A stretch of DNA of 58,693 nucleotides, from positions 1-58,693 of IMG/VR virus record IMGVR_UViG_3300035698_012504. The stretch is one strand, 5' to 3'. The translations under genes were made by a program, and so were the position numbers. The notes beneath the pieces are model-generated. The model was not told where the DNA came from, made no database searches, and saw only the letters and a program-made list of their open reading frames with translations. How positions within the stretch are numbered: position 1 is the first letter of the stretch; every line of letters begins with the position of its first letter. Source of the DNA: a virus. Shown here in pieces: positions 13,926 through 53,729 of this stretch.

Positions 13926-14189
13926 ATGTATGTATCCGAACAATTCATAAATAATTTACAAGAGAAGGGGCGCTTTGTTAGGGTTGCTAAGAAGCTATTC
14001 AAAAAGAAAAAACCTGAAGCACCACCTCCACCAAAAGGCATTAAAGAAAAACTTCAGCGTAAGTTTGCATCAATGAAAAATAATGCTGCTGAAAAAGCGA
14101 AAAAGAAAAAGAGAAAAAATACTATGCATGCGACAGCTGGAGTCGGAGTAGTTGGGATGGCTGCATTAGGAGCCCAAGACAGGCACTAA
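13926..14189 (+). CDS. MY[IV]SE-family small protein: Lys-rich with a Gly-rich hydrophobic C-terminus (87 aa)
   Basis: N-terminus MYVSEQFINNL is shared with 43963, 49862 and 53000. C-terminus ATAGVGVVGMAALGA. Confidence 0.7.
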   Translation: MYVSEQFINNLQEKGRFVRVAKKLFKKKKPEAPPPPKGIKEKLQRKFASMKNNAAEKAKKKKRKNTMHATAGVGVVGMAALGAQDRH

Positions 14190-33085: not shown

Positions 33086-33087
33086 AT

Positions 33088-34914: not shown

Positions 34915-34924
34915 AGGATTCAAT

Positions 34925-36213: not shown

Positions 36214-36215
36214 TT

Positions 36216-37659: not shown

Positions 37660-38478
37660 ATGAAATCGATTAGCGACAAGTTATTAGAAAATTATTTTAA
37701 TAGTGGTGGTCTAGCTATACCCCAAAAACATTGGTTGAGAAATAAACCAATTGCACATAAAGGTTTATGGACACCAGATAATCCAAGTAATATTCCAGAG
37801 AATAGTCTTCCTGCAGTAGAAAATGCGATTAGACATAAATATGCAGTTGAAGTAGATATACAGTTATCATTAGATGGAGAATTAGTAGTATTTCATGACT
37901 TATTTTTAAATAAACTATGTGGAATAGGTGGGACAATTTCTCAATATACTCTGAAGCAATTAAAAGAATTCAAACTTTCAGAAACAGAATATACAATTCC
38001 AACATTAGAAGAAGTATTAGAACTTACATCTAAAAAAACACCCGTTCTTGTAGACATTAAAGGAGATGTTATGGGGAAGCAAGGAACTGCAAAATTATTG
38101 GCGCACGAGTTAAAAAATTATAAAGGGCATGCTGCCATGCATTCTTTTAACTTTAGTGACTTAAATTACTTCAAACGAGTTGCCCCCAATATTCTTAGGG
38201 GACAAATAATATCTGACTTCAATAAACAAGATGTATCGTTCATTCTTAAATTATTATTAAGAGGAGCAGCCAATTTATTTGAGGCCAAAGGAGATCCTCA
38301 TTTTATTTCATTGGATGTAAGGTCTAAAGTGCAAAGAATCATTAAGTCAGTATGGGCTAATAAAAGAGGCGGAGTAATATTGGCCTGGTTGGTTGATACT
38401 AAAACAATGGAAGCAGTATCAAGGGGATTTGCAGATAACATTATATTTGAAAGAATTAATCCCAAACAACCGTGGTAA
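37660..38478 (+). CDS. glycerophosphodiester phosphodiesterase (GDPD) family protein
   Basis: IAHKG....PENSLPAVENAI..KYAVEVDIQLSLDGELVVFHD, the GDPD catalytic signature. Confidence 0.8.
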   Translation: MKSISDKLLENYFNSGGLAIPQKHWLRNKPIAHKGLWTPDNPSNIPENSLPAVENAIRHKYAVEVDIQLSLDGELVVFHDLFLNKLCGIGGTISQYTLKQLKEFKLSETEYTIPTLEEVLELTSKKTPVLVDIKGDVMGKQGTAKLLAHELKNYKGHAAMHSFNFSDLNYFKRVAPNILRGQIISDFNKQDVSFILKLLLRGAANLFEAKGDPHFISLDVRSKVQRIIKSVWANKRGGVILAWLVDTKTMEAVSRGFADNIIFERINPKQPW

Positions 38479-39032: not shown

Positions 39033-39558
39033 AATTCTAAATAAAATTTTATATAGTGTGCTCGATATTATCAAATATGTGTTTATTAACAAACACAAAA
39101 AAATTGATTACTCTCAGCAACGATGGGATAGACACTATCTGAAGATGGCTAATTTTGTTGCAAGTAAGTCTAAAGATAATAGTACTCAAGTTGGTTGTGT
39201 TATTGTCGGCCCCTCGCATGAAGTAAGATCGACTGGGTATAATGGTATGCCTAGAGGCGTAGAAGATTCTATTAGTAAAGTTCCAAAAAGATTTGAGAGA
39301 CCAGAAAAGTATAAATGGTTTGAACATGCTGAACGAAATGCTGTTTATAATGCAGCTCGTTGTGGTACACCCCTCGAAGGATGTATAGCATACATAGAAT
39401 ATTTTCCTTGTACAGACTGTGCCAGATCATTAATTCAATCAGGTATAATTAGAATAGTGGTTACTCATCATCCAGACTTTGAAGAAAGATATGCTGAGGA
39501 AATGAAAACGTCTAAGGTAATGTTATATGAAGCAGGAGTAATTATAGATGTCTATTAG
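38965..39558 (+). CDS. dCMP deaminase (zinc-dependent); start uncertain
   Basis: HAERNA and PCTDCA zinc motifs. The conserved WDRHYLKMA N-terminal helix needs a start upstream of 39130. Candidates are ATG 38965/38980 (overlapping DHFR) or GTG 39058. Confidence 0.85.
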   Translation: MSTKKMKKILTILSFWKWNLTSRILNKILYSVLDIIKYVFINKHKKIDYSQQRWDRHYLKMANFVASKSKDNSTQVGCVIVGPSHEVRSTGYNGMPRGVEDSISKVPKRFERPEKYKWFEHAERNAVYNAARCGTPLEGCIAYIEYFPCTDCARSLIQSGIIRIVVTHHPDFEERYAEEMKTSKVMLYEAGVIIDVY

Positions 39559-40033
39559 TAATCAGTTTTTAAATGAGTTAAGCACCTCTGATTTCAGAGT
39601 TCTACCTGCCACAGAAGAACTAGTCAAAAAAGTATTTGATAATAAAATACATGCTGAAGATTATGTGAATATGTTGAAAGAGGGAGATACTGGAAAGTTT
39701 GTATTCAGTAATAAGAATGATGATTATATAGGACATATAATGGTTAAGGTTAATGAACACAAACACAGAGAATTATCAGTACTATTTATACAAAAGAAAT
39801 ATAGAAGAAGTGGATACGCCCAGTTCCTTATAAATCTATACCCAAAACTTCAAGTGTTATATACAGAGGTAGATAATAAAGAATCTCAACGATTGTATAC
39901 CAAACTCGGGTGGGTGAATAGTGGAATAAAAGGACATTTTGATTCTAAAAATTATGATCATATATGGATCTTATTTTATAAAAAGAAATATATAAAGATA
40001 AAAGAATTAGATGTGTATGAAAAAGGAGTTTAA
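39548..40033 (+). CDS. GNAT-family N-acetyltransferase (putative)
   Basis: LSVLFIQKKYRRSGYAQFLI acetyl-CoA-binding-like motif. Confidence 0.5.
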   Translation: MSISNQFLNELSTSDFRVLPATEELVKKVFDNKIHAEDYVNMLKEGDTGKFVFSNKNDDYIGHIMVKVNEHKHRELSVLFIQKKYRRSGYAQFLINLYPKLQVLYTEVDNKESQRLYTKLGWVNSGIKGHFDSKNYDHIWILFYKKKYIKIKELDVYEKGV

Positions 40034-43803: not shown

Positions 43804-43813
43804 TTTTTTTTAG

Positions 43814-43823
43814 TGAGGACAAA
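43814..43823 (+). promoter_or_regulatory. TGAGGACAAA motif, site 3 (intergenic, 52 nt upstream of ATG 43875)
   Basis: Identical 10-mer. The match extends to 13 nt (TGAGGACAAATTA) with site 4. Confidence 0.45.
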
Positions 43824-43874
43824 TTAGTATAAGATAGTACCTCGTGTACAAATTAATTAAAAAGGAGAGAAACC

Positions 43875-43961
43875 ATGAGTGTTTTAGAAATTATCACAGC
43901 GATTATTAACTTTTTGTCAATGATACTGTCAATTCTAGCTGGGTTGGACATATCTATTTAA
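43875..43961 (+). CDS. 28-aa hydrophobic peptide (below the ORF-track cutoff)
   Basis: AAAGGAGAG 5 nt upstream. MSVLEIITAIINFLSMILSILAGLDISI. The stop lies 1 nt before the next ATG. Confidence 0.45.
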   Translation: MSVLEIITAIINFLSMILSILAGLDISI

Positions 43962-43962
43962 T

Positions 43963-44340
43963 ATGAACAGTTCTAAATCCTTTATAGAAGCGAATCTACG
44001 CAAGGTCGCAGCTGCTGAAGATAAGATGGGTGGGTTTAATAAAACTACTCAGTCTGATCAAATTACTATGAATATTAAGACGGCTATCAATCGACAATCT
44101 GATAGATTAAAAGTATGTAGTGGTAGAAGTAATCCTATTGCTAAACTAGAATGTGAGGTCAAGATATATAGACGGCTTGTCGGATTCATAGGAGGCCTAT
44201 CTGGGAAGTGTAATAGAGACGCTAATCCAGATAGATGTAAAGAAAAAGTTTTAAAGTTTAGAGATAATTATCAAGAAACTTTGAAACAACGTGAGTTGAA
44301 ATTAAATACTTTAAAAGAAAAGGCAAGGAAAGGTAACTAA
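43963..44340 (+). CDS. small basic Cys4-domain protein (125 aa), MxxS[EK]xF[IL] family
   Basis: N-terminus MNSSKSFIEANL. C-x11-C-x18-C-x8-C pattern shared with 49862 and 53000. Confidence 0.7.
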   Translation: MNSSKSFIEANLRKVAAAEDKMGGFNKTTQSDQITMNIKTAINRQSDRLKVCSGRSNPIAKLECEVKIYRRLVGFIGGLSGKCNRDANPDRCKEKVLKFRDNYQETLKQRELKLNTLKEKARKGN

Positions 44341-44344
44341 CTTA

Positions 44345-45505
44345 ATGCCAGACCCTAAAAATATTCTCTCATTCAAACCACCTGGTGAGCTTGAAAAGAG
44401 AATAGATGAACAATGTCCAGACGAATTAAATGTTTATATCGATTTTAAAAATATTGCAACAGCTCTATACGTAGAGGACGTTGCAAAAGATATAGTCTTC
44501 AATTCTACAGGAACTAAATTTTTAGATAGCACTATATTTCAAGCAGTATTATATACTATTTCATGGTGGAAGAAGTATTCTAAGGAAAGAGGTCTAAAAT
44601 GTAATCTATATTTTTTCTCCGATTTTGGTAAATCGGCGTATCATAGAGAGATACATACAGGATATAAAGAAAATAGAGCTATCGCTAACCTCAAAGATCC
44701 AGAACTATATGAAGATTTATTTAAGATCAGAATGAAAAATTCTGAATTATCTGAGAAGGTAATTAATAAAATACCAGGATGTCATTTCTTTTATTTAAGC
44801 TATCTAGAATCTGATTTCGTACCATACTATCTGATAACTAGAAAGATAACTAATAAAAATGCTATAAATGTAATTTGTTCTAATGATAAGGATATGTTTC
44901 AAATTTTAGAAGAAGATAATATTGTTCAGATATATACCATGAGAGGCAATAGGCATTTAGTAGATAAAGATAATTGCCTAATTTCATATACGAAGCTCAG
45001 CAAATCGTCTGAGAAGATTCAACAAGATCTAATATATCAAATATCTAAATTGGAAATAGCTGATATACCTATGGTTATGGCACTCGTTGGAGATAAGAGT
45101 GATGACATTCCTGGCGTAAAAGGCATAGGTCCTAAGAATGCTGTTAGAATGATATCTGAATCAGATACAGTTGAAAAAACGATAGGATCTGGGCTTATAG
45201 ATAGAGTAGCAAGCGGAGGAAATGTATTTATAGATACAGACCCAGAGCATGCTACTTCTAAAAAATGGGAAGCAGCTTTAGAATCTAACGAAACTGTTAC
45301 TAAAGCTTATAAAATGATATCATATGAATGCTTATCTCGATGGTTGGAACTTAAAAATTCAATTGAGAAAATAAATTGGATTAAGTACATGGATGATATA
45401 CTGAATAAAAAAGATGACATTAATAAGAATTCATTTATAGACGCATTATCTAAGTTAGATGATATATATCTTGAGTTAGAAGATGTTGAAAATATTTTTA
45501 TATAG
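44345..45505 (+). CDS. 5'-3' exonuclease / flap endonuclease (T4 RNase H-like)
   Basis: H3TH motif LVGDKSDDIPGVKGIGPKNAVRMI. Acidic N-terminal nuclease residues. Confidence 0.8.
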   Translation: MPDPKNILSFKPPGELEKRIDEQCPDELNVYIDFKNIATALYVEDVAKDIVFNSTGTKFLDSTIFQAVLYTISWWKKYSKERGLKCNLYFFSDFGKSAYHREIHTGYKENRAIANLKDPELYEDLFKIRMKNSELSEKVINKIPGCHFFYLSYLESDFVPYYLITRKITNKNAINVICSNDKDMFQILEEDNIVQIYTMRGNRHLVDKDNCLISYTKLSKSSEKIQQDLIYQISKLEIADIPMVMALVGDKSDDIPGVKGIGPKNAVRMISESDTVEKTIGSGLIDRVASGGNVFIDTDPEHATSKKWEAALESNETVTKAYKMISYECLSRWLELKNSIEKINWIKYMDDILNKKDDINKNSFIDALSKLDDIYLELEDVENIFI

Positions 45506-45515
45506 GAGGATTATT

Positions 45516-45842
45516 ATGACTGGAAGAGATCTGTTGAATCAGTTACAAACTCATCCAGAGCTTCTTGACCAAGAAATAGATGGAATCTGGATCAAGCCTA
45601 AGTGTTACGAACGAGAAGGGTATAGAAGTAATACTTGTGTCTGCACAGGATATAAACTTTCTTATAATATTGGGGATCACCCTCTTGCTAGTATTTTCAA
45701 CTTCCGTCCGAGAATAATCGAGTTATTTAATACTCCTATTTTCGCTACACCTAAAACAGAAAACTCTATTGTAATAGGAGTAGATATCATTAGCCCATTG
45801 GACGAACCATCAGACTGGTTTGACGAACAAATAGGAACGTAA
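45516..45842 (+). CDS. hypothetical protein (108 aa)
   Basis: ATG 45516 follows TAGGAGGA. ORF-track start 45483 rejected. Confidence 0.7.
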   Translation: MTGRDLLNQLQTHPELLDQEIDGIWIKPKCYEREGYRSNTCVCTGYKLSYNIGDHPLASIFNFRPRIIELFNTPIFATPKTENSIVIGVDIISPLDEPSDWFDEQIGT

Positions 45843-45844
45843 AA

Positions 45845-46570
45845 ATGCTAACCTGGAATCAAGTTTTAACATATGTAAAAGGTAGATTGGCTCTTCCATC
45901 ATCCTTCATAGAGAAGACAGATGAAGAGATCAAAGATTGGTGTAAGCTCACATCTCTTAAAGAGTTTAGTCAATACTATCCAGATTCAGAACGTACAAGT
46001 GTACTTCCTCATATAGCAGAGTATCAACACGATACTAGAAATAGTTGGTATTATTTCTTCGATGAAGAAAACAGTGAGATTCTGGGGATTAAAGAATGCT
46101 ATTGGCCATGCACTGATAATTTTATCTCAGGCCACCCACCTACAGGAGCAACTAGTTTTGAAGGTATGAAATGGTGGTCTTTGTCTGTATTTAAAGCAAG
46201 ATTTTTTTCACCTTTCTCTGCATGGAGTAAGACATATAGATTTAGAGCTCCTAATATTGTAGAGGTATTAGGAGACGATAGTATAAGTACATTAGCTACT
46301 AATTTTGTTGTTGAATATGAAAGAGTTCATCCCGATGATCTTAGAAAGATCCCAGTATCTCTTCATAGAGTGTTTATGGATCTTTGCCTAGCTGATACAA
46401 TGATTATGATAGGAAGTATTCGCAGAGGATATACTGAGATTAATACCCCATTTGGTCAAATTCCATTAAATGCTGACGCTCTCCTAAGTGAGGGACAAGA
46501 AATGCGAAGAGATTTGATAGAAAAAATGGAAAGAGGTAGTTTGCCAGCCGTTATAATCGATATTGGATAA
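45845..46570 (+). CDS. possible neck / head-completion protein (T4 gp13-like N-terminus)
   Basis: VKGRLALPSSFIEKTDEEIKDWCKLTSLKEFSQYYP resembles the gp13-type pattern RLG.P...VELT..QI......AL..F..Y. From memory only. Confidence 0.3.
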   Translation: MLTWNQVLTYVKGRLALPSSFIEKTDEEIKDWCKLTSLKEFSQYYPDSERTSVLPHIAEYQHDTRNSWYYFFDEENSEILGIKECYWPCTDNFISGHPPTGATSFEGMKWWSLSVFKARFFSPFSAWSKTYRFRAPNIVEVLGDDSISTLATNFVVEYERVHPDDLRKIPVSLHRVFMDLCLADTMIMIGSIRRGYTEINTPFGQIPLNADALLSEGQEMRRDLIEKMERGSLPAVIIDIG

Positions 46571-46573
46571 GTT

Positions 46574-48415
46574 ATGATAAACTGTAAAATATGTGATAAA
46601 GAATTTAAGAATTTAGTTCAACTATCAGGACATATCCGTAGTTTTCATAAAATAAATATTATGATATACTATTTAAAATATATTAATTCTAATAATAAAT
46701 GTCCTATATGTGGCCAGTTATGTAACTTTAAAGGACTTGGCAAAGGATTTACTAAAACTTGTTCGGCGTCGTGCGGCGGAAAACACGGGGTAGAAAAACG
46801 AAAACGAAGCAGTCTTGAACGATATGGTGTTGAATGCACATTGCAAGCTGAAGAGACTAAAATTAAAACTAAAAAAACATTTCAAAAAAGGTATGGTGTA
46901 GATCATGTATCGAGATCTAAAAAAATCAGAGATCGTGCTAAACATACTATGATAGAAAAATATGGTGTAGAATATTCCGGCCAGTCATCAGAGATAAGAA
47001 CTAAAATGAAACAAACTAACCTGAAACGATATGGTGTTGAAAATCCACTACAATCTAAGGAAATAAGAGATAAGATTAAGAAAACTAATTTAGAACTATA
47101 TGGTGTTGAAAATGTTGGTCAGAATAAAGATATTAAATCTAAGATTAAAAAAACTAATTTGAACCGACATGGTGTTGAATGTGTTTTCCAATCTGAAAAA
47201 GTGAAAGAAAAAATTAAAAATACAAATCTAAAAAAATATGGTGTAGAACACGCTTCTAACTCTAAAGAAATTAGAGACAAAATTGAGAAAACTAATTTAA
47301 AGAAATATGGTGTAAAAACAATTCTGCAATTAGATGAAATAATATATAATACTACACAAAAAAGAAGAAGCAAATTTTTCACTAATCTTATTAATTCTGA
47401 TCGACTTAAAAATAAATGCGCTCCAAATTTCACAGAGAATGATTTTCAAGGGGTTGATTTTGAATATTCTTGGAACTGCATTAAATGTGGAAATGATTTT
47501 AACGATAGTGTAGACAATGGCAAAATCCCAAGATGCTCAAATTGTTATCCTAAATTGAATAGTTGTTCCAAAGGTGAGAAAGAGATTTTTGATTTTTGTA
47601 GATCAATCTTAACCGACGATATTGAAATAATAGAGAATGACCGCTCTGTATTAATCGGTAAGGAACTCGACGTCTACATACTATCCAATAACCTTGCTAT
47701 CGAATATAATGGTTTATACTGGCATTCGGATCTTAATGGTAAAAATAAAGATTATCACTTGGATAAAACTTATAAATGTAAAGAAAAAGGAATAAATCTT
47801 TTACATGTCTTCGAAGATGAATGGATTGATAAGCTAGAAATTGTTAAGTCTATAATCAAAAATAAACTAGGGTTAACTAAATATCGGGTATTTGCTCGTA
47901 AATGTACTATTAAAGAAGTTGCAAATGATAATGCCCAATTATTTTTATTTGATAACCACATTCAGGGTTCTATCAAAGGAACACAATATGGACTATATTT
48001 CGAAGACGAATTAGTTTCTATTTTAACCATTGGTAAATCCAGATATAATAAAAAATACGAATATGAAATATTAAGATTTTGTAATAAGATTAATACTAGT
48101 GTTGTTGGTGGGTTCTCTAAATTATTAAAGTATTTTAAAACTAAATATAATCCTAAATCAATTATCACATATTGTGATTTAAGATATGGAACTGGTGAAG
48201 TTTATTTAAAGAATGGATTTAGTTTTACTTCTAAATCTAAGCCTTCTTATTATTATGTTAAGAATGGAGATAGATCCTCTAGAATTAAATTTCAGAAGCA
48301 TAAATTAAAAAATTTATTAGAATCATTTGATTCAAATTTAACTGAGTGGCAGAATATGCAACTCAATGGGTATGATCGTATTTGGGACTGTGGTTGTAAT
48401 GTGTACACATTATAA
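46574..48415 (+). CDS. Hef-like homing endonuclease candidate: C2H2 zinc finger, 8 x 23-aa repeats, and a PD-(D/E)XK/Vsr-like nuclease-like region
   Basis: CKICDKEF..H...FH. Repeats of [KR]YGVE.....[KE]I[RK].K.K.TN. ELDVYILSNNLAIEYNGLYWHS...H.FEDEW. Confidence 0.5.
   Translation: MINCKICDKEFKNLVQLSGHIRSFHKINIMIYYLKYINSNNKCPICGQLCNFKGLGKGFTKTCSASCGGKHGVEKRKRSSLERYGVECTLQAEETKIKTKKTFQKRYGVDHVSRSKKIRDRAKHTMIEKYGVEYSGQSSEIRTKMKQTNLKRYGVENPLQSKEIRDKIKKTNLELYGVENVGQNKDIKSKIKKTNLNRHGVECVFQSEKVKEKIKNTNLKKYGVEHASNSKEIRDKIEKTNLKKYGVKTILQLDEIIYNTTQKRRSKFFTNLINSDRLKNKCAPNFTENDFQGVDFEYSWNCIKCGNDFNDSVDNGKIPRCSNCYPKLNSCSKGEKEIFDFCRSILTDDIEIIENDRSVLIGKELDVYILSNNLAIEYNGLYWHSDLNGKNKDYHLDKTYKCKEKGINLLHVFEDEWIDKLEIVKSIIKNKLGLTKYRVFARKCTIKEVANDNAQLFLFDNHIQGSIKGTQYGLYFEDELVSILTIGKSRYNKKYEYEILRFCNKINTSVVGGFSKLLKYFKTKYNPKSIITYCDLRYGTGEVYLKNGFSFTSKSKPSYYYVKNGDRSSRIKFQKHKLKNLLESFDSNLTEWQNMQLNGYDRIWDCGCNVYTL
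46823..47374 (+). repeat. eight tandem 69-nt (23-codon) coding repeats, YGVExxxQSKEIRDKIKKTNLxx
   Basis: The Tyr codon of YGV recurs at 46823, 46892 ... 47306 with a 69-nt period. The last unit is degenerate. Confidence 0.8.
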
Positions 48416-48421
48416 ATATAT

Positions 48422-48449
48422 GAGAAGTAGCAATGGAGAAGTAGCAATG
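48422..48449 (+). repeat. perfect 14-nt tandem duplication GAGAAGTAGCAATG x2 spanning a start codon
   Basis: Read directly. The junction creates GGAG 8 nt upstream of ATG 48447. Confidence 0.9.
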
Positions 48450-48947
48450 GAAAAGAAAACATATGTAAGTGAACGGAAAATTGAAGAACTTCTAAGTCCA
48501 GAAGTTTTAAAAGAAGGTAGTTATTATGGAGGGGGTACTATCATTCAGGCAGAAGATAGATCAAAAAAAGTAGGTTGGCAGCTGTTGGCTGGTGCTGCTA
48601 CATCGTATATGCTTTTTGATTCAGGATTACCTAAAAAGAAGGGAGAAATGTTAGGGGCAAACATAGCACTTTTTCCAAAGGGTGGGCTCTCAAGTAAGGT
48701 GGTCGCCGATGCAAAAGGAGTTAAAAATATAGATTGTAATGTTAGATGGAATTCTGGTTCCAATCCATATCATAAGTTTACCGTAGAAGTTAAAGGGGCA
48801 ACATATGAAATAGTTGCTGATGCAGATGCAGGGAATGCTATGAAATTTTGGGGGCCAATATTTACTGGGATGTTTCTCACCTTGTTTTGGAGCATTCCAT
48901 TAGCAGCATTTCTATCGTACACTGGAACTATAACAAGAATAAAATAG
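48447..48947 (+). CDS. hypothetical protein with a C-terminal transmembrane helix (166 aa); start 48447 or 48420
   Basis: C-terminus FWGPIFTGMFLTLFWSIPLAAFL. GGAG lies 8 nt upstream of 48447. Confidence 0.6.
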   Translation: MEKKTYVSERKIEELLSPEVLKEGSYYGGGTIIQAEDRSKKVGWQLLAGAATSYMLFDSGLPKKKGEMLGANIALFPKGGLSSKVVADAKGVKNIDCNVRWNSGSNPYHKFTVEVKGATYEIVADADAGNAMKFWGPIFTGMFLTLFWSIPLAAFLSYTGTITRIK

Positions 48948-48959
48948 AAAGATACATAA

Positions 48960-49862
48960 ATGAATCCAGTCTGGTTTGAGAACAATAAAAAATATCAGGA
49001 CGAACTAAAGTCCCTTAGAAAGTTTAGAATAAATCCAAACGATATATGTCATATTGTCATAACCCATTTCAATATTAATCTAAGTAAAAACGTAGGGCAT
49101 ACTGGAAGAGAATATAAACGAAATTGGCAAAAGCCAATTCTTAAACAAGGAATTGGTAAAAAATGGATGCAACAAAGAACAGAATTATTTGATCAAATTT
49201 GTTATCCATCTATGTTAAATCAAACGAATCAGAATTTCGAATGGTTTACTTTTTTTGATAAGGATACAACTGATATAAAATCATACAGAAAATATAATCG
49301 AATGCATCCAATGCTTATACCATATAAGGATCCATTTAGATATCAGACACACATAATACAAAATCTCCTTATTGATCGAGGCATTAAAAAGAAGTGGTTT
49401 ATATTCACAAAGTTAGATAATGATGATGCTCTTAACAAAACATTTATAGATAGACTACAAAACATTTGGCTTCCGTATTGTATAAAACATAATAGAGAAT
49501 TTTCTATGGTTTGTTTTACAAGTGGCGTAATGGCCCTAAAGAGACCCGATGGAAAAAGTAAACTCATGACCAAAGAAGATAGATATGGACCATTCGTAAA
49601 TACAATAGAGAAATTTAATAAAGATTACAAGAAGTTTAAAACATGTTGGCATAGCTATCATACTACTATGCATGACAAAGCTTTTCCAGAGAGTGTAGTT
49701 AGATACACAGATAAGAGTGATCCTATGTGGTTTATATACGATCACGAATTTAATTTGTGTGATAGAGATCCAAGATTAAAGGAAAAGACCGATTATACTG
49801 GGACAGAGAAAGACCTAATAGAAAGGTTTAATATTAATCCTAAATACGTGAGGTTAAAATAA
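48960..49862 (+). CDS. putative rhamnosyl-transferase-like glycosyltransferase, paralogue of 34129
   Basis: WMQQRTELFDQICYPSMLNQTNQNFEW and TKLDNDDALNKTF. Confidence 0.4.
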   Translation: MNPVWFENNKKYQDELKSLRKFRINPNDICHIVITHFNINLSKNVGHTGREYKRNWQKPILKQGIGKKWMQQRTELFDQICYPSMLNQTNQNFEWFTFFDKDTTDIKSYRKYNRMHPMLIPYKDPFRYQTHIIQNLLIDRGIKKKWFIFTKLDNDDALNKTFIDRLQNIWLPYCIKHNREFSMVCFTSGVMALKRPDGKSKLMTKEDRYGPFVNTIEKFNKDYKKFKTCWHSYHTTMHDKAFPESVVRYTDKSDPMWFIYDHEFNLCDRDPRLKEKTDYTGTEKDLIERFNINPKYVRLK

Positions 49863-50158
49863 TGTATATATCTGAGAAGTTTATAGAGAACACAGTAAAT
49901 TCTTATTTTTCTTGGAGGTATGTCGGAACCTCTGTAAGAAAGGCGAAGTCTGTTTGTAATAAATATAAAAGTAATCCCTCAAAGTATAACTCATGTATGG
50001 TAAGAGGATTGAGCCATTATAGACGTACAGTTAAATCCAATGTGAGTAAACATTGTGGTAAAGGAAAAACTCCCCAACATAAAAGAAGCTGTATAAACGT
50101 GGCTAATAAAATCATCTCTAGTTTTACCAATAAAATTGAAAAATATAAAGGTAGATAA
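49862..50158 (+). CDS. MY[IV]SE-family small basic Cys4-domain protein (98 aa)
   Basis: N-terminus MYISEKFIENT. C-x12-C-x19-C-x11-C. TAATG overlap. Confidence 0.7.
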   Translation: MYISEKFIENTVNSYFSWRYVGTSVRKAKSVCNKYKSNPSKYNSCMVRGLSHYRRTVKSNVSKHCGKGKTPQHKRSCINVANKIISSFTNKIEKYKGR

Positions 50159-50159
50159 A

Positions 50160-50720
50160 ATGAACTCTAAGGAAAAAGGTGGACGGTTTGAACGAAAAGT
50201 TGCTAGAGACCTTTCTAAGCTTTGGAGTGATGGGAAGCGGGATGATCTTTTTTGGCGTTCTCAATCTAGCGGTGGAAGACATACTATCAGAGCTAAGAAA
50301 GGGTTAGTTACTGAAGGGCAAGCTGTAGATATAGCATCCACATCTAAAGAGACAGCTATTTTTTCTGAAAAAGTAATTGTAGAGTGTAAACATTACAAAG
50401 AAATTAATTTATGGGACCTCATTACTGGTAGTGAGGAGACAGGGCTTCGGGGATGGTGGAATGGGACTAAAGAGATAGGATTGTCAGAACGTAAACATCC
50501 TATACTTATTGCAAAACAAAATTATAGACCAGAATTGTTTATATGTGAAAGTACTCTCACTTGTAATCTAAAAGAATATATTACTCTTGATATAAAAGCG
50601 ATGTTTTTAGATAAATGGAAAGACACAGTAGATATATATTTATTTGAAGATATCCTTAAGTGTAGTTCAGAAAGTTTTAAAGATATGATTAATATCATAG
50701 GAGAAAATAACAATGCATGA
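50160..50720 (+). CDS. Hjc-like PD-(D/E)XK nuclease (Holliday-junction-resolvase-like)
   Basis: KGGRFERKVARDL ... VDIAS ... VECKHYK, i.e. the KG..FER / D / E.K arrangement. ATG 50160 follows the upstream stop. Confidence 0.5.
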   Translation: MNSKEKGGRFERKVARDLSKLWSDGKRDDLFWRSQSSGGRHTIRAKKGLVTEGQAVDIASTSKETAIFSEKVIVECKHYKEINLWDLITGSEETGLRGWWNGTKEIGLSERKHPILIAKQNYRPELFICESTLTCNLKEYITLDIKAMFLDKWKDTVDIYLFEDILKCSSESFKDMINIIGENNNA

Positions 50721-50859
50721 ATCTAATATGTTTATAGATTATTTAGAAGAGAAATCGGCGGTAATAGTAGGAGTGGGAGGGGCGGCAGTGGCGGCAGGTG
50801 GTGCTGGATATCTAGCATATAGAAGTATGAAAAAGAAACAAGCAGCGAAAAAGAAATAA
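50713..50859 (+). CDS. 48-aa Gly/Ala-rich membrane peptide with a basic tail (below the ORF-track cutoff)
   Basis: ATGCATGA overlap with the upstream stop. SAVIVGVGGAAVAAGGAGYLAY then RSMKKKQAAKKK. Confidence 0.45.
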   Translation: MHESNMFIDYLEEKSAVIVGVGGAAVAAGGAGYLAYRSMKKKQAAKKK

Positions 50860-50870
50860 GGAGTATATTT

Positions 50871-51131
50871 ATGTTTGGGTTTCCAACTACTAGAGTCGGT
50901 AATGGACTTCAAGTTAAGAATGGAATTATTGTTAAAACCGGTAGGTATAATATACTTAATCTTAGAGAAGAAGGGGTTAATGTTGAGTTAGGAGATGTTA
51001 AAATTGAAGACGGGTTTCTTATAATCAATAATATTCCGATTGTTCCCCCGATTCCATTAGCGATATTACCACCAGGTACTATATATGCTCTTCCGTCTGG
51101 TGTAGTGATGGTTAAACTTCCGTCATCATAA
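50871..51131 (+). CDS. hypothetical protein (86 aa)
   Basis: AAGGAG RBS. The competing minus-strand ORF 50909-51430 is rejected. Confidence 0.6.
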   Translation: MFGFPTTRVGNGLQVKNGIIVKTGRYNILNLREEGVNVELGDVKIEDGFLIINNIPIVPPIPLAILPPGTIYALPSGVVMVKLPSS

Positions 51132-51155
51132 TTATTAAAATAGAGGAATATAAAA

Positions 51156-51482
51156 ATGAAAAGATCTATTTCGGATATATTTTTAAATGAAGGATTACAG
51201 ACTTCAAAAGTATCAATAGAGTTAGCAGAATTTGATAACATCTCAAAGGCTGTTAGTAAATTAAAAAAAGTTGCAGATAAATATACAAAGCAAGAAGAGC
51301 AGTTAAATTCTGGTGGGGCTGATGATTTACCAGAATTTGAATTACAAATCAGTAAGCCTATGTTTAAAACTAAATATAAAGGTAATAATGAACTATTAAT
51401 AACTTTAGTTCGGTTAGTAGATATTACCAATCATAAATTAGTTTATGAGGAAAGAGTTATTACGAAAATAAAGGTAATATAG
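51156..51482 (+). CDS. hypothetical protein (108 aa)
   Basis: TAGAGGAA RBS. Confidence 0.6.
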   Translation: MKRSISDIFLNEGLQTSKVSIELAEFDNISKAVSKLKKVADKYTKQEEQLNSGGADDLPEFELQISKPMFKTKYKGNNELLITLVRLVDITNHKLVYEERVITKIKVI

Positions 51483-51493
51483 AAGGGGTAATA

Positions 51494-51940
51494 ATGGCTA
51501 GATTTTTACCATATATTTTACACGATCATTATAGTATGGGACGAGCAAAGCATCACTATGATCTTAGAATTAAATATCCTAATAGATTAAGTGTAGCTTC
51601 TTGGGCACTTCCTAAACATAGAATTCCTGACGTTCATGAAAAAACTTTAGCTATGCAAGGACACGACCATGATATGTGGTGGCTTAAAGCTGACCACTAT
51701 GTAATTCCTAAAGGGGAGTTTGGAGAGGGAATAGTTAAGGTACTACAGAAGGGAATGATTGAGCTTAGGGGATGGGGAAAGTTTCATATTACATTTGTAG
51801 TAGAAGGTCCTATTATGGATGGAAAATTTACTTTAATACGGCCTCCGGCTTTTGTTAGTCAAGATAGAAAAAGAATAAAGAAGAATCCGAGGTCGGGGAA
51901 GTCCTGGTTATTTATAAAAGCAAGACCAGAGAAAGATTAG
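51494..51940 (+). CDS. LigD 3'-phosphoesterase (PE) domain-like protein
   Basis: HHYDLRI, SWALPK, GHDHDMWW and IPKGEFGEGIVKV are collinear with the LigD-PE motifs HYDFRLE, SWAVPKG, EDHPL.Y and IP.G.YGAG.V. Confidence 0.65.
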   Translation: MARFLPYILHDHYSMGRAKHHYDLRIKYPNRLSVASWALPKHRIPDVHEKTLAMQGHDHDMWWLKADHYVIPKGEFGEGIVKVLQKGMIELRGWGKFHITFVVEGPIMDGKFTLIRPPAFVSQDRKRIKKNPRSGKSWLFIKARPEKD

Positions 51941-51941
51941 T

Positions 51942-52190
51942 ATGCATAAACGTATAAGAGAAATTAAAAGAGTTATTCATGGCGCAACTGGAGTTACTAA
52001 ATCCGTTACGGGAATAAGTCTTGCATCTGAAGAAGAAATTAAAAGAAGAAGAAAAATTTGTTCAAACTGTGAATTTGCTTTAAAATATAAACAAAGTACA
52101 ACTAGAGTACATAAATGTAGTGCATGCGGGTGTATTTTGCGCCACAAGACGAGACTGAAGAATGAATCGTGCCCAAAAAATAAGTGGTAG
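51942..52190 (+). CDS. small Cys-rich (zinc-ribbon-like) protein (82 aa)
   Basis: CSNC...CSACGC...C motif. Confidence 0.55.
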   Translation: MHKRIREIKRVIHGATGVTKSVTGISLASEEEIKRRRKICSNCEFALKYKQSTTRVHKCSACGCILRHKTRLKNESCPKNKW

Positions 52191-52199
52191 AGAGAATAT

Positions 52200-53009
52200 A
52201 TGAATAGAAAATATAATCAAAAATATGTTGAAGAATATTTTAAAAAATATGAATGTAAACTAATTGATACCTATAGAAGTACTAAATATCCGATAAAATT
52301 TAGGTGTTCCTGTGGAAATATATCATTTATAAAATTTCTTCATTTTAAAAAGAAACATAAATGTAAAAAATGTAATTATGCAGAAACTAATAAATATAAA
52401 AAACATACTCAGGATTATGTTGAAGGGTATTTTAAAGAAAATGGGTGCGAATTATTAGATAACTACAGGAATGATAAATCTACATTAATTTACATCTGTT
52501 CTTGTGGAAACACTTCAAATATAAGATTTTCAGATTTTAAGAAAGGTCAGAGATGTATGAAATGTGCTATAAAAAAGAGATCGGGAAAGAATCATTATAA
52601 TTGGAATCCAGATAGGCAAAAAATAGAAGTAAGGAGAAAAGTAGACGTAGCATGCAGGTCTCTAATATATTGTACATTAAAAGCAACAGGTCATAAAAAA
52701 ACATGCAAAACAGAAAACATGCTTGGATATTCTAGAGGTGACTTTTTAAATAAACTCAAAAGAGATCCATTATTTGAGAATTGGAAGAATAACTCTTATA
52801 ATTATCATATAGATCATATATTTCCAATAAAATCATTTATAGATGAAAAAATATATGATCCTAAAATAATAAATGCCCTTGATAATTTACGCATATTACC
52901 AAGTCATAGTAATTGGAAAAAGAGTTCAAAATGCGATAAACTTTTGTTTAATAAATATTTAAAAAATACCACCACAGATTATATCGAGGAGGAAATCATA
53001 TGTACATAA
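52200..53009 (+). CDS. HNH homing-endonuclease-like protein, family copy 3 (269 aa, full length)
   Basis: Two zinc-ribbon modules, NWNPDR linker, and HNH core YHIDHIFPIKSF...NLRILPSHSNWKK. Confidence 0.75.
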   Translation: MNRKYNQKYVEEYFKKYECKLIDTYRSTKYPIKFRCSCGNISFIKFLHFKKKHKCKKCNYAETNKYKKHTQDYVEGYFKENGCELLDNYRNDKSTLIYICSCGNTSNIRFSDFKKGQRCMKCAIKKRSGKNHYNWNPDRQKIEVRRKVDVACRSLIYCTLKATGHKKTCKTENMLGYSRGDFLNKLKRDPLFENWKNNSYNYHIDHIFPIKSFIDEKIYDPKIINALDNLRILPSHSNWKKSSKCDKLLFNKYLKNTTTDYIEEEIICT

Positions 53010-53728
53010 GTGAAAGTTTTTTGATGAGCGTAGAATTTAAACGCGCTCTAGGAGATCTTATGGAAGCTCTAGTCGGAGAAGAACTAGATGAGCCAGGATC
53101 CATTCAAGAAATTTATGAGATTAGCATAAATAAAATTGTAACAGATGATACAGTTAGTACAGAAGAAATGATAGATAGATTAAACATCTGTGAAAATTTA
53201 TTTGATACCTTTACCGAACACATTCAAGAACTATTATTAACAGAGACATCTAGAGAGGGGTTAATGAGTAGAATTGATGATAGGCAATCTCAGATAGATG
53301 TTCTAAGTGGTCCTTCTAAAGGTAAGATAAGAGATATTCCTAGGATGGGTACAAAATTTGTTGATACAATGGATCTAGTCATGGCAAAAGTTAATGATAT
53401 AAGTAAAAGAGCAAAAGAAATTCACGGGGATTGGAAACATATTAAAGGTACTGCTGCACTAGTATCTTCTATAGCAGTAATTGGTATTATAGCATTAGTA
53501 ACTAGAAAATTATATAGGAAGCATGTACATGGTGAGTGCCAGAAATATAGTGGTAAGGATTTATATATTTGTAAAATACAAAGATCAAAAGAAATAGAAG
53601 AAGCATTATTATCTCAGATGTCAAAATGCGATAAAACAGATAAGCCTAAATTATGTAAACGTAAAATAGAAGACACAATGAAGAAAATCAGAAAAGATAG
53701 AGATAAATGGGAAAAGAAGTTATTATAA
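53000..53728 (+). CDS. MY[IV]SE-family protein with a central TM helix and a C-terminal Cys4 domain (242 aa)
   Basis: N-terminus MYISESFLMS. TM helix AALVSSIAVIGIIALV. C-x10-C-x18-C-x8-C. Confidence 0.7.
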   Translation: MYISESFLMSVEFKRALGDLMEALVGEELDEPGSIQEIYEISINKIVTDDTVSTEEMIDRLNICENLFDTFTEHIQELLLTETSREGLMSRIDDRQSQIDVLSGPSKGKIRDIPRMGTKFVDTMDLVMAKVNDISKRAKEIHGDWKHIKGTAALVSSIAVIGIIALVTRKLYRKHVHGECQKYSGKDLYICKIQRSKEIEEALLSQMSKCDKTDKPKLCKRKIEDTMKKIRKDRDKWEKKLL

Positions 53729-53729
53729 A

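What the first reader, a model, noticed from the sequence alone, without database searches (positions are those of the whole stretch)
49862..50158. Small basic four-cysteine domain shared by three proteins (C-x10-12-C-x18-19-C-x8-11-C)
The pattern occurs in three proteins:
- 49862-50158: C-x12-C-x19-C-x11-C
- 43963-44340: C-x11-C-x18-C-x8-C
- the C-terminus of 53000-53728: C-x10-C-x18-C-x8-C

Each is embedded in Lys/Arg-rich, probably helical sequence and followed by a basic helix. Two of the three have S-N-P between C1 and C2. The spacing is too long for a classical zinc knuckle and looks more like a pair of disulfide- or metal-stapled helices. I do not recognise the domain. In 53000 it sits after a TM helix, so it would be anchored at a membrane.
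Basis: seen in the sequence. Interest (0 to 1): 0.5.

Follow-up and report, generated by a model that had tools for sequence, protein, structure and literature searches.

The report
New two-cysteine-pair domain in jumbo phages
Three proteins of an uncultivated giant phage share a previously undescribed small basic helical domain held by two cysteine pairs, and they also share a short N-terminal tag with five other proteins that looks like a sorting signal.

Summary
ORFs A (49862-50158), B (43963-44340) and C (53000-53728) carry C-x10-12-C-x18-19-C-x8-11-C. Shuffling gives 0.03 such ORFs, against 3 observed.

C has 21 distant homologues on metagenomic contigs, several of jumbo-phage size (183-306 kb). 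All match its hydrophobic helix plus the Cys domain. The four Cys are invariant, with gapless C-x10-C-x18-C-x8-C spacing.

A profile built only from those outside homologues picks C, B and A, and nothing else, from all 389 window ORFs. So the three are paralogues of one new family. Pfam, PHROGs, NCBIfam, PDB and BFVD give no match.

AlphaFold predicts three helices. C1/C2 flank the first turn and C3/C4 the second, at opposite ends of the middle helix. One homologue keeps only C3/C4. The cysteines therefore act as two staples, not as one Zn(Cys)4 site.

All three proteins, five other window proteins and most homologues begin with a leader, M-Y-I-S-E-x-F-I-x-E/N. It resembles the T4 capsid-targeting sequence MKTYQEFIAE.

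The function is inferred, not shown. My best guess is virion-delivered membrane- or DNA-binding proteins. The domain itself is moderately interesting and the leader is the better lead.

The parts
53000..53728 (+). ORF C, 242 aa. This is the canonical family member: N-terminal leader, acidic helical region, hydrophobic helix, then the basic four-Cys domain.
   Evidence: 21 homologues (E from 3e-16 to 5e-4) all match aa ~130-241. Public gene calls give the same ORF.
53447..53503 (+). Predicted transmembrane or hydrophobic helix of C, aa 150-168 (GTAALVSSIAVIGIIALVT). It is rich in Gly, Ala and Ser and has basic residues on both flanks.
   Evidence: mean Kyte-Doolittle 2.77 over the best 15-residue window. 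An equivalent 15-24 residue uncharged run is present in the homologues tabulated there; it is part of helix 152-182.
53504..53725 (+). Four-Cys domain of C, aa 169-242, net charge about +9. Cys at 180, 191, 210, 219 (core nt 53537-53656). Gly185 and Pro216 are conserved in at least 90% of the family.
   Evidence: the four Cys are invariant and the spacing is gapless in 22 sequences; pLDDT 95-98; helices 185-212 and 216-241.
43963..44340 (+). ORF B, 125 aa. A soluble paralogue with the leader, a 40-aa linker and the four-Cys domain (Cys 52, 64, 83, 92; core nt 44116-44238). It has no hydrophobic helix.
   Evidence: Outside-only HMM E=7e-8. hhalign 90.7%, E=1.3e-6. 0 of 1000 Cys-fixed shuffles reach its score.
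49862..50158 (+). ORF A, 98 aa, 22 K+R against 3 D+E. This is the most divergent paralogue: the leader followed directly by the three-helix four-Cys domain (Cys 32, 45, 65, 77; core nt 49955-50092).
   Evidence: Outside-only HMM E=2.4e-4, third of 389 ORFs. hhalign P=0.0055 with all four Cys aligned. 0 of 1000 shuffles reach its score. AlphaFold helices 5-15, 18-35, 39-66, 71-96.
49862..49891 (+). N-terminal leader of A: MYISEKFIEN.
43963..43995 (+). N-terminal leader of B: MNSSKSFIEAN.
53000..53035 (+). N-terminal leader of C: MYISESFLMSVE.
   Evidence: Homologues in other phages carry the same leader.
13926..14189 (+). Leader-bearing ORF without Cys, 87 aa. It starts MYVSEQFINNLQE, is very basic (23 K+R), and has a C-terminal Gly/Ala-rich hydrophobic stretch.
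37660..38478 (+). Leader-bearing enzyme: a GDPD phosphodiesterase starting MKSISDKLLEN. The catalytic domain starts near aa 31.
39548..40033 (+). Leader-bearing enzyme: a GNAT acetyltransferase starting MSISNQFLNE. The domain starts near aa 21.
50713..50859 (+). Leader-bearing 48-aa ORF. It starts MHESNMFIDYLEE, then has a Gly/Ala-rich hydrophobic helix and a KKK tail.
   Evidence: Called as a gene in public assemblies.
51156..51482 (+). Leader-bearing 108-aa ORF starting MKRSISDIFLNE.

Best explanation
SHOWN. A, B and C are paralogues that carry one previously undescribed domain of about 60-65 aa. It is strongly basic (net +4 to +14) and is predicted to form three antiparallel helices. C1 sits at the end of helix 1 and C2 in the first turns of helix 2. 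C3 sits at the end of helix 2 and C4 in the first turn of helix 3. The four cysteines therefore form two separate pairs, each clamping one helix-turn-helix corner. The pairs lie at opposite ends of a straight middle helix of 27-28 residues, about 28 Angstrom apart.

The ancestral architecture is conserved in at least 21 proteins on AT-rich metagenomic contigs, several of jumbo-phage size (183-306 kb). These contigs carry multisubunit RNA polymerase genes or a UDG-fused family B DNA polymerase, and one carries a tail sheath gene. The architecture is: N-terminal leader, variable region, hydrophobic Gly/Ala-rich helix, Cys domain. C is the canonical copy. A and B are shortened soluble copies without the hydrophobic helix.

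All three share an extreme N-terminal leader, M-(Y)-I-S-E-x-F-I-x-E/N. So do five unrelated window proteins and most homologues.

INFERRED. The leader is a sorting tag analogous to the T4 capsid-targeting sequence MKTYQEFIAE. It would bring these proteins, together with a phosphodiesterase and an acetyltransferase, into the prohead, possibly with cleavage after Glu by a head protease. The proteins would then travel in the virion and be ejected into the host. The cysteine pairs would oxidise to disulfides in the extracellular virion and stabilise a very small domain. After entry, the basic helices would bind DNA or acidic membrane lipid, and the hydrophobic helix of C would insert into the host membrane.

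My confidence in the 'shown' part is about 0.9. My confidence in the virion-delivery function is about 0.3-0.35.
For: Family and paralogy:
- Exhaustive phmmer with C gives 21 hits, all on aa ~130-241.
- The four Cys are invariant and gapless in the alignment.
- The outside-only HMM picks exactly C, B and A. hhalign results are, and the Cys-fixed shuffles.

Fold:
- One search gives pLDDT 95-98 over the domain of C. One search gives the same layout for A.

Cysteines act in pairs:
- L016 7121-8347 keeps the hydrophobic helix, C3-x8-C4 and helix 3, but has lost both C1 and C2.
- C2 and C3 are 19 residues apart on one helix. That puts them about 100 degrees apart on the helical wheel, as expected for the two interfaces of the middle helix of a bundle (inference).

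Leader:
- S[ENDK]xF[IL] occurs 8 times in about 19,000 aa, and 7 of these start within the first 9 residues (0.05 expected).
- The Ser codons differ between copies (TCT, AGT, TCC), so conservation is at the peptide level.
- The same leader starts P0013, P0019, P0020, P0014, P0015, P0016, P0021 and P0024 from other phages.
- A Glu in an [LI]xE or F[IL]E context ends at residue 8-13 in 7 of 8 leader ORFs, against 9 of 95 other ORFs.

T4 and giant-phage precedent:
- T4 internal proteins are nonessential and highly basic, and are cut once next to the roughly 10-aa CTS MKTYQEFIAE (PMC8442874).
- The CTS is the only feature conserved among the diverse internal proteins (PMC3012670).
- The head proteases of T4, phiKZ, 201phi2-1 and SPN3US all cut after Glu. 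The giant-phage paralogues SPN3US gp53 and gp54 share an identical 15-aa N-terminus (PMC5694885).

Context:
- The window encodes a virion structural protein related to phiR1-37 g333 and to Listeria phage LPJP1.
- phiR1-37 has an annotated head maturation protease.
- In L016 three paralogues lie upstream, on the same strand, of a tail-fibre-like gene, a virion structural protein and the tail sheath.
Against: - There is no proteomic or experimental evidence that any of these proteins is in a virion or is cleaved.
- No head protease was found in the window, and the rest of the genome could not be fetched.
- The leader differs in register from the T4 CTS (F-I-E against F-I-A-E). phiR1-37 structural proteins in its first 50 kb show no such leader.
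- In three contigs the family gene follows the RNA polymerase beta' N-fragment gene. In two it lies next to the DNA polymerase gene. These are not classical structural neighbourhoods.
- In the window, A, B and C lie among nucleotide-metabolism, repair, glycosyltransferase and homing-endonuclease genes.
- The only similarity to a head-core protein (C aa 45-119 against gp68 of T4-like Aeromonas phages) has E=1 database-wide and is not shared by other members.
- No model coordinates were available, so Cys-Cys distances were not measured. Disulfide versus metal is undecided.
- A's membership rests on modest scores.
Confidence: 0.45

Rival explanations
1. An intracellular membrane-tethered factor. 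The hydrophobic helix anchors C in the host inner membrane with the basic Cys domain on the cytoplasmic side. There it binds nucleic acid, acidic lipid or a phage enzyme such as RNA or DNA polymerase. A and B are soluble competitors or regulators. The Cys stay reduced or bridge a metal between subunits. The leader is a protein-protein interaction or turnover motif, not a packaging tag.
For: - The domain has net charge +4 to +14, which favours a cytoplasmic location by the positive-inside rule.
- The family gene lies directly after the RNA polymerase beta' N-fragment gene in three contigs.
- It lies next to the UDG-fused DNA polymerase gene in two contigs.
- A and B have no export signal.
- The pre-helix regions of some members resemble apolipoprotein or YtxH-type amphipathic repeats that bind lipid surfaces.
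Against: - Four Cys that are invariant across sequences only 24-41% identical are hard to explain if they are merely reduced thiols in the cytoplasm.
- The three RNA-polymerase-linked members form one closely related subgroup, so that synteny may simply be inherited.
- This model does not explain why a phosphodiesterase and an acetyltransferase carry the same leader.
Confidence: 0.25
2. A periplasm-facing lysis or exclusion protein. C would be a single-pass membrane protein whose C-terminal domain is exported and oxidised by DsbA. It would act as a holin, antiholin, spanin-like or superinfection-exclusion protein. T4 holin T, which from memory has a disulfide-bonded periplasmic domain, would be the analogue.
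For: - Small proteins with one hydrophobic helix and a highly charged C-terminus are typical of holins (general knowledge).
- Cys pairs placed to form disulfides fit an oxidising compartment.
- Both flanks of the hydrophobic helix are basic, so topology is not fixed by sequence.
Against: - A and B lack any hydrophobic helix or signal peptide yet keep the domain.
- No endolysin, or spanin partner beside the gene, was found next to any of the members examined.
- Exporting a domain with net charge up to +14 is unfavourable.
- Up to three paralogues per genome is unusual for holins.
Confidence: 0.12
3. A single-site zinc module, in which the four cysteines of one chain jointly bind one Zn2+ as an unusual long-spaced zinc finger used for nucleic-acid binding.
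For: - Four invariant Cys in a basic domain of proteins that, for A and B, should be cytoplasmic.
- B and A have Gly in the C2-C3 segment, which might allow a bend.
Against: - There are no CxxC or CxxH knuckles.
- In the confident model the C2-C3 segment is one straight helix of 27-28 residues, which places the pairs about 28 Angstrom apart.
- Across the family this segment is a clean amphipathic helix without conserved Gly or Pro.
- One homologue keeps only C3/C4.
- No zinc-finger family matches.
- An intermolecular metal bridge cannot be excluded.
Confidence: 0.07
4. Chance or compositional coincidence: three unrelated Lys-rich small ORFs that happen to have four similarly spaced Cys.
For: Pairwise BLASTP among A, B and C is not significant, with E between 0.04 and 0.06. 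None of the three has any hit by word-indexed search apart from itself.
Against: The shuffle expectation is 0.03 against 3 observed. The outside-only profile finds exactly these three. Cys-fixed shuffles never reach the real scores. All three also share the N-terminal leader.
Confidence: 0.02

Closest known systems
T4 internal proteins (IPI, IPII, IPIII, Alt) with the capsid-targeting sequence MKTYQEFIAE
   Same: - In both cases a leader of about 10 aa at the extreme N-terminus is the only thing shared by otherwise unrelated proteins of one phage.
- In both cases the carriers include small, highly basic proteins and enzymes.
- The leader here has an aromatic residue, then Glu, then F-I, then Glu or Asn, often as (L/I)-x-E near residue 10. 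That matches the site type cut by T4-like head proteases.
- The carrier genes are scattered and the proteins are hypervariable or orphan.
   Different: - There is no sequence homology to any T4 internal protein.
- The register differs by one residue (F-I-E against F-I-A-E).
- Packaging, cleavage and a protease are all unshown here.
- T4 internal proteins are not known to have this Cys domain or a hydrophobic helix.
Giant-phage ejection and inner-body proteins (phiKZ gp93 family; SPN3US gp53, gp54 and gp47)
   Same: - These are paralogous families in jumbo phages whose members share N-terminal propeptides cut after Glu.
- SPN3US gp47 has a transmembrane segment in its mature part (PMC5694885).
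- Several paralogues occur per genome.
   Different: - Those propeptides are mostly longer than 100 aa, with S/A/G-x-E sites.
- There is no sequence or profile similarity.
- No member of the present family was found in any isolate phage by tblastn.
CHCH (twin Cx9C) domains and other disulfide-stapled helical hairpins
   Same: Small all-helical domain with four invariant Cys that act as two pairs linking neighbouring antiparallel helices.
   Different: - In CHCH each Cx9C lies within one helix, and both disulfides link the same two helices.
- Here each C-x8-12-C spans a turn, with Gly or Pro in the middle, and the two pairs staple two different corners of a three-helix zigzag.
- The compartment differs and there is no sequence relation.
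Generic elongated three-helix bundles (ribosome recycling factor domain I, spectrin repeat, designed bundles)
   Different: Sequence identity is 5-15%, there are no conserved Cys, and no functional link is implied. This fold is too common to be informative.

Membership tests
New family defined here (hydrophobic helix plus C-x10-C-x18-C-x8-C domain of uncultivated jumbo phages) | Significant match to a profile built from members outside this window | tested here: met
   C scores 5e-25, B 7e-8 and A 2.4e-4. The next ORF is at 0.19.
New family defined here | Four invariant Cys with the family spacing, Gly in loop 1 and Pro in loop 2 | tested here: met
   C fits exactly. B has one extra residue in loop 1 and has the N-P. 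A has +2, +1 and +3 residues and has S-N-P and T-P.
New family defined here | Hydrophobic helix immediately upstream of the domain | tested here: not met
   This is met for C only. A and B lack it, so they are derived soluble paralogues rather than canonical members.
T4-type capsid-targeted internal proteins | A short N-terminal leader shared by otherwise unrelated proteins of the same phage | tested here: met
   Eight window ORFs carry it. Seven of the 8 occurrences of the motif in the proteome are N-terminal, against 0.05 expected.
T4-type capsid-targeted internal proteins | The leader ends at a head-protease site, (L/I)-x-E | tested here: inconclusive
   A Glu in an [LI]xE or F[IL]E context ends at residue 8-13 in 7 of 8 leader ORFs and 12 of 20 homologues. 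The motif is partly built into the leader definition, and cleavage has not been shown.
T4-type capsid-targeted internal proteins | The genome encodes a gp21-type prohead protease | tested here: inconclusive
   No protease was found among the window ORFs that were scanned. The genome extends beyond the window and could not be fetched. The distant relative phiR1-37 has one.
T4-type capsid-targeted internal proteins | The protein is present in virions and N-terminally processed | not testable with these tools
   This needs virion mass spectrometry, and the phage is uncultivated.
CHCH / twin Cx9C | Two Cx9C motifs, each inside a helix, with disulfides C1-C4 and C2-C3 | tested here: not met
   The spacings are x10-12 and x8-11 with a conserved Gly or Pro inside. 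The predicted turns fall between C1 and C2 and between C3 and C4.
Zinc ribbon, zinc knuckle or other Zn(Cys)4 fingers | Paired CxxC or CxxH knuckles that bring four ligands to one site | tested here: not met
   There are no knuckles. The Cys pairs lie at opposite ends of a straight helix of 27-28 residues. A homologue with only half the domain exists. There are no Pfam, NCBIfam or PDB hits.
Holin or spanin lysis proteins | Gene next to an endolysin or spanin partner, with every member membrane-bound | tested here: not met
   No endolysin or spanin partner was found beside the gene in any of the seven contexts examined. A and B have no hydrophobic helix.

The most novel reading that the evidence does not exclude
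The leader M-Y-I-S-E-x-F-I-x-E would be the portable capsid-targeting or ejection-sorting signal of a whole uncultivated clade of AT-rich jumbo phages. The two-Cys-pair domain would be a redox-switched clamp. It would be oxidised and rigid inside the extracellular virion, then reduced in the host cytoplasm after ejection. Reduction would release basic helices, and in C a hydrophobic helix, that tether the incoming genome to the membrane or protect it. The three paralogues would be a diversifying set of injected proteins comparable to the T4 internal-protein arsenal.
Probability: 0.15. Interest if true: 0.75.

Novelty: new variant of a known kind. Interest (0 to 1): 0.55.

Why it matters
How giant phages choose the dozens of proteins they pack into the head and inject is largely unknown, apart from the T4 capsid-targeting sequence and the long propeptides of phiKZ and SPN3US. 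A 10-residue leader shared by eight unrelated proteins of one phage, and conserved in relatives, would be a simple and testable sorting code. It would also allow candidate injected proteins to be predicted from sequence in uncultivated jumbo phages.

Separately, the domain is a clean new family for the databases. It has four invariant Cys, a confident three-helix model and at least 25 members, and it currently has no annotation at all. It is a compact example of turn-stapling cysteine pairs.

If the function turns out to be mundane, the result still stands as a correct paralogue and domain assignment for three orphan genes.

Tried and rejected
- Pfam, PHROGs and NCBIfam scans on A, B, C and on all 22 family members found nothing above noise.
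- Megablast of 43000-54000 against phages gave no match. tblastn of A, B, C and the family consensus against 50,697 phage records gave nothing significant.
- C aa 45-119 matches gp68 prohead core protein of T4-like Aeromonas phages with E=1, including GLMSRIDDRQS against GIVSRIKDRQT. I checked this with phmmer against the whole family. Only C matches, so I treat it as chance.
- The search for related loci in IMG/VR with single proteins and with a 5-sequence alignment found no relatives. The alignments were too variable for the genome and metagenome scans.
- The first 50 kb of phiR1-37 contain no family member and no leader on annotated structural proteins. I did not fetch the rest of that genome or LPJP1.
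- Internal duplication of the two Cys loops is only weakly suggested, with hhalign P=0.03.
- TGAGGACAAA looked like a possible shared promoter and has 4 exact copies. Its contexts are not consistent, so I dropped it.
- MAFFT alone misaligns the Cys of the three window domains.
Full report
**1. The observation**

The window is AT-rich (about 31% GC) with essentially all genes on the + strand.

| ORF | Coordinates | Length | Cys positions | Spacing |
|---|---|---|---|---|
| A | 49862-50158 | 98 aa | 32, 45, 65, 77 | x12, x19, x11 |
| B | 43963-44340 | 125 aa | 52, 64, 83, 92 | x11, x18, x8 |
| C | 53000-53728 | 242 aa | 180, 191, 210, 219 (plus Cys64) | x10, x18, x8 |

- A and B have no other Cys.
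- A is extremely basic, with 22 K+R against 3 D+E.
- C has an uncharged hydrophobic run at aa 150-168 directly before the domain.
- A, C and the leader ORFs at 13926, 37660, 39548, 50713 and 51156 have Shine-Dalgarno-like sequences upstream.
- B has none. It starts one base after the stop of a 28-aa hydrophobic mini-ORF that does have one.
- Public gene calls agree with the coordinates of A and C.

**2. Is it more than chance?**

I shuffled each of 98 likely genes 2000 times. The strict pattern appeared in 0.03 ORFs on average, never in more than one, against 3 observed. A relaxed pattern gave 0.66 against 4 observed (P=0.0015). The fourth relaxed hit is a 553-aa glycosyltransferase and is unrelated (see section 3). 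Because the pattern was written after seeing the data, I give more weight to the independent profile test in section 3.

**3. Are the three regions one domain?**

Direct comparison cannot tell. Pairwise BLASTP E-values are 0.04-0.06. Pfam and PHROGs find nothing. Each protein found only itself in the word-indexed search of 5.8 billion clusters.

The exhaustive HMMER search with C changed the picture.
- It found 21 representatives (E from 3e-16 to 5e-4, 24-41% identity). Every one aligns to C aa ~130-241, which is the hydrophobic helix plus the Cys domain.
- In the alignment the four Cys are invariant and the spacing C-x10-C-x18-C-x8-C is gapless in all 22 sequences.
- Gly185 in loop 1 and Pro216 in loop 2 are at least 90% conserved.
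- The consensus is YR...(H/Y)G.C.K.SG.EL..CKI..., then 17 further residues, then C.KT.(D/N)P..CK.KI.

I then built an HMM from the 21 outside sequences only and searched all 389 six-frame ORFs of the window.

| ORF | E-value |
|---|---|
| C | 5e-25 |
| B | 7e-8 |
| A | 2.4e-4 |
| next best | 0.19 |

- hhalign gives B 90.7% probability (E=1.3e-6). It gives A only 6.7% (P=0.0055), although all four Cys align in both.
- When Cys positions and composition are held fixed and the rest of the domain is shuffled, 0 of 1000 shuffles reach the real scores. A scores 15.1 bits against 0.3+-2.1, with the highest shuffle at 14.8. B scores 26.5 against 1.3+-3.2.
- The similarity therefore goes beyond Cys spacing and lysine richness.

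Conclusion: B is a clear paralogue and A is a real but strongly diverged one.

**4. Structure**

With the 22-sequence alignment, AlphaFold2 models the C-terminal 60 residues of C at pLDDT 95-98.

| Helix | Residues | Cys |
|---|---|---|
| 1 | 152-182 (hydrophobic helix running on) | C180, two residues before the end |
| turn 1 | two residues, at the conserved Ser-Gly | none |
| 2 | 185-212 | C191 near the start, C210 near the end |
| turn 2 | three residues, before the conserved Pro | none |
| 3 | 216-241 | C219 in the first turn |

- The single-sequence model of A (pLDDT 72) has the same plan: helices 18-35, 39-66 and 71-96, with C32/C45 around turn 1 and C65/C77 around turn 2.
- C1/C2 and C3/C4 therefore sit at opposite ends of a straight middle helix of 27-28 residues. 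C2 and C3 are 19 residues apart on it, about 28 Angstrom. A single intramolecular Zn(Cys)4 site is not compatible with this model.
- C2 and C3 are about 100 degrees apart on the helical wheel. That is what the two interfaces of the middle helix of a three-helix bundle require (my inference).
- An evolutionary argument agrees. In contig L016 a 408-aa paralogue keeps the hydrophobic helix, C3-x8-C4 and helix 3 (E=2.4e-8) but has lost both C1 and C2 together.
- The two Cys-bracketed loops may be an old internal duplication, but the evidence is weak (hhalign P=0.03).
- I could not obtain coordinates. Sulfur-sulfur distances, and therefore disulfide versus intersubunit metal bridge, remain open.
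- A profile search of PDB sequences gave nothing below E=0.01.

**5. Where the family lives**

The homologues are all from metagenomes.
- Several sit on contigs of jumbo-phage size: 306 kb (P0021), 183-201 kb (P0019) and 189 kb (P0014). P0020 sits on a 62-kb contig binned as a Peribacteraceae MAG.
- The contigs have 27-32% GC. Between them they encode split multisubunit RNA polymerase subunits, a UDG-fused family B DNA polymerase, radical SAM and QueC proteins and, in L016, a myovirus tail sheath.
- The window itself encodes a virion structural protein (phrog_18911). Its only relatives in isolate phages are in Listeria jumbo phage LPJP1 (27% identity) and Yersinia jumbo phage phiR1-37 g333 (24%), which is annotated as a structural protein.
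- No family member is detectable in any of 50,697 isolate phage records by tblastn.

Gene neighbourhoods are conserved only within subgroups.

| Contigs | Neighbourhood |
|---|---|
| L011, L012, L017 | directly after the RNA polymerase beta' N-fragment gene |
| L008, L013 | lone gene divergent from the DNA polymerase gene |
| L016 | three paralogues, upstream on the same strand of a tail-fibre-like gene, a virion structural protein (phrog_19418) and the sheath |

Having several paralogues per genome is therefore not peculiar to this window.

**6. The N-terminal leader (not in the finding)**

All three proteins start alike.

| ORF | Product | N-terminus |
|---|---|---|
| A, 49862 | four-Cys paralogue | MYISEKFIEN |
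| B, 43963 | four-Cys paralogue | MNSSKSFIEAN |
| C, 53000 | four-Cys canonical member | MYISESFLMS |
| 13926 | 87-aa very basic protein | MYVSEQFINN |
| 37660 | GDPD phosphodiesterase | MKSISDKLLEN |
| 39548 | GNAT acetyltransferase | MSISNQFLNE |
| 50713 | 48-aa hydrophobic peptide | MHESNMFIDYLEE |
| 51156 | 108-aa protein | MKRSISDIFLNE |

- The motif S[ENDK]xF[IL] occurs 8 times in about 19,000 aa of window proteins, and 7 of these start within the first 9 residues, against 0.05 expected.
- The codons differ between copies, for example Ser as TCT, AGT or TCC. Selection is therefore on the peptide, not on the DNA.
- In the two enzymes the leader is an extension ahead of the catalytic domain.
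- The same leader begins most outside homologues: MYISEKYLIE, MYISEKYIGE, MKYISEFYINE, MDYISESYY, MSYVTESYIEE, MNLSEEYY and MTQYISEQFILE. An M48 peptidase in L012 has it too.
- No leader-bearing ORF occurs in the 10 kb of small early-type genes upstream of the window.
- A Glu in an [LI]-x-E or F-[IL]-E context ends at residue 8-13 in 7 of 8 leader ORFs, against 9 of 95 other window ORFs, and in 12 of 20 homologues. This statistic is partly circular, because F-[IL] is part of the leader definition.

**7. What it most likely does**

The closest functional analogue is the T4 capsid-targeting sequence.
- T4 internal proteins are nonessential and highly basic. They are cut once next to the roughly 10-aa leader MKTYQEFIAE, and any protein fused to that leader is packaged (PMC8442874).
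- The leader is the only feature conserved among the otherwise diverse internal proteins (PMC3012670).
- T4 Alt is targeted the same way (PMC5694885). Alt is an ADP-ribosyltransferase (my own knowledge).
- The head proteases of T4, phiKZ, 201phi2-1 and SPN3US all cut after Glu.
- Giant-phage head paralogues such as SPN3US gp53 and gp54 share identical N-termini.
- The SPN3US ejection protein gp47 has a transmembrane segment (PMC5694885).
- phiR1-37 has an annotated head maturation protease.

The present case matches in several ways: a short leader with aromatic, Glu, F-I, Glu; small basic proteins and enzymes as carriers; paralogous expansion; orphan-like divergence; and a hydrophobic helix in the canonical member.

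I therefore favour this model, as an inference at about 0.3-0.35. The leader sorts these proteins into the prohead. The Cys pairs become disulfides in the oxidising extracellular virion and stabilise a domain too small to have much of a core. After ejection, the basic helices bind DNA or acidic lipid, and the hydrophobic helix of C inserts into the membrane.

None of the packaging, cleavage or redox steps has been shown.

**8. Rivals**

- **Cytoplasmic-face membrane tether for nucleic acid or polymerase (0.25).** The strong positive charge of the domain and the RNA and DNA polymerase neighbourhoods support it. It explains poorly why four Cys are invariant and why enzymes carry the leader.
- **Exported, DsbA-oxidised lysis or exclusion protein (0.12).** It fits disulfides. 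A and B, which have no hydrophobic helix or signal peptide, contradict it, as does the absence of an endolysin or spanin partner beside the gene in any context examined.
- **Single-site zinc finger (0.07).** The straight C2-C3 helix and the half-domain homologue contradict it.
- **Coincidence (0.02).** refute it.

**9. Comparison with known families, and novelty**

This is not a CHCH twin-Cx9C domain, because the turns fall inside the C-x-C segments rather than between them. It is not a zinc ribbon or knuckle, and it is not a holin or spanin (see the membership table). It has no entry in Pfam, PHROGs, NCBIfam or the PDB.

I class it as a new variant of a known kind. It is a new disulfide-type stapled helical domain, and its carriers look like a jumbo-phage counterpart of leader-tagged internal or ejection proteins. 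The domain family and the leader are new. The concept they fit is not.

**10. Verdict**

The domain alone is of moderate interest. The N-terminal leader shared by eight proteins and conserved across related giant phages is the more valuable lead, because it offers a testable sorting code. Interest is 0.55.

Noticed in passing
window 13926-14189, 37660-38478, 39548-40033, 43963-44340, 49862-50158, 50713-50859, 51156-51482, 53000-53728: Eight otherwise unrelated ORFs begin with the same leader, consensus M-Y-I-S-E-x-F-I-x-E/N. Seven of the 8 proteome-wide occurrences of S[ENDK]xF[IL] are N-terminal. The leader is also conserved at the N-terminus of homologues in other jumbo-phage contigs and resembles the T4 capsid-targeting sequence MKTYQEFIAE.
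   Followed up: yes
window 43875-43961: A 28-aa hydrophobic mini-ORF (MSVLEIITAIINFLSMILSILAGLDISI) with a strong ribosome-binding site ends one base before the start of B. B has no Shine-Dalgarno sequence of its own, so the two are probably translationally coupled. The soluble paralogue B may therefore be co-made with a separate membrane peptide.
   Followed up: partly
L016 7121-8347, 9413-9982, 10001-10681 (JGI 3300037067): Another phage contig also has three family paralogues close together. One is a 408-aa protein with only the second Cys pair (C3-x8-C4). They lie upstream of tail-fibre-like, virion structural and tail sheath genes.
   Followed up: yes
L011 9056-15429, L012 9076-12840, L017 5798-7590: In three jumbo-phage contigs the family gene sits immediately after the gene for the N-terminal fragment of RNA polymerase beta'. 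In two of them it lies between the beta' N and beta' C fragment genes.
   Followed up: partly
window 386-10289 (for example 2123, 3962, 7034, 7429, 7644): Many small ORFs in the left 10 kb begin with a different shared N-terminus, MI(F/Y/V)(D/E), as in MIFDNDNK and MIFDNGNE. This suggests a large paralogous family of small early proteins.
   Followed up: no
window 12940, 37518, 43814, 56005: The 10-mer TGAGGACAAA occurs four times exactly, all on the + strand. Three copies are in intergenic regions upstream of 12957, 37660 and the mini-ORF before B. Its role is unclear: the contexts do not align as a promoter.
   Followed up: partly
window 40573-43803: A 1076-aa ORF that, from its length and sequence, looks like a ribonucleotide reductase subunit interrupted by an intein with an endonuclease domain. 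It lies directly upstream of B. I judged this by reading the sequence only.
   Followed up: no
window 18611-19177, 20747-21250, 52200-53009, 54473-55291, 46574-48415, 40033-40554, 57179-58075: There is an unusually high load of homing-endonuclease-like genes. These include paralogous pairs with Cys-rich repeats (MSKKLSYEYVKQYFEE and MGKKLTYEYVKQYFKD; 52200 and 54473), HNH endonucleases, and a GIY-YIG. Two of them flank C and its neighbouring glycosyltransferase.
   Followed up: partly
window 24654-37487: A 13-kb block of at least 12 glycosyltransferase, sulfotransferase, methyltransferase, hexapeptide acyltransferase and ATP-grasp genes. This is a large glycan-modification module for a phage.
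   Followed up: no
window 12957-13595: A 212-aa acidic protein with an internal start followed by a typical lipoprotein signal and lipobox (MKRILASFLIVIASIFILSGC). It lies next to the leader-bearing basic ORF at 13926.
   Followed up: no
window 56158-57222: A 354-aa protein matching Pfam Volactin (PF25216), i.e. an actin-like protein encoded by the phage.
   Followed up: no
window about 18840: The window spans two separate ENA assembly contigs of the same sample, ERZ27315536 k141_424224 (74.8 kb) and k141_105526 (80.3 kb, starting near window position 18842). The genome is therefore at least about 135 kb, and about 40 kb lie beyond the right end of the window.
   Followed up: partly
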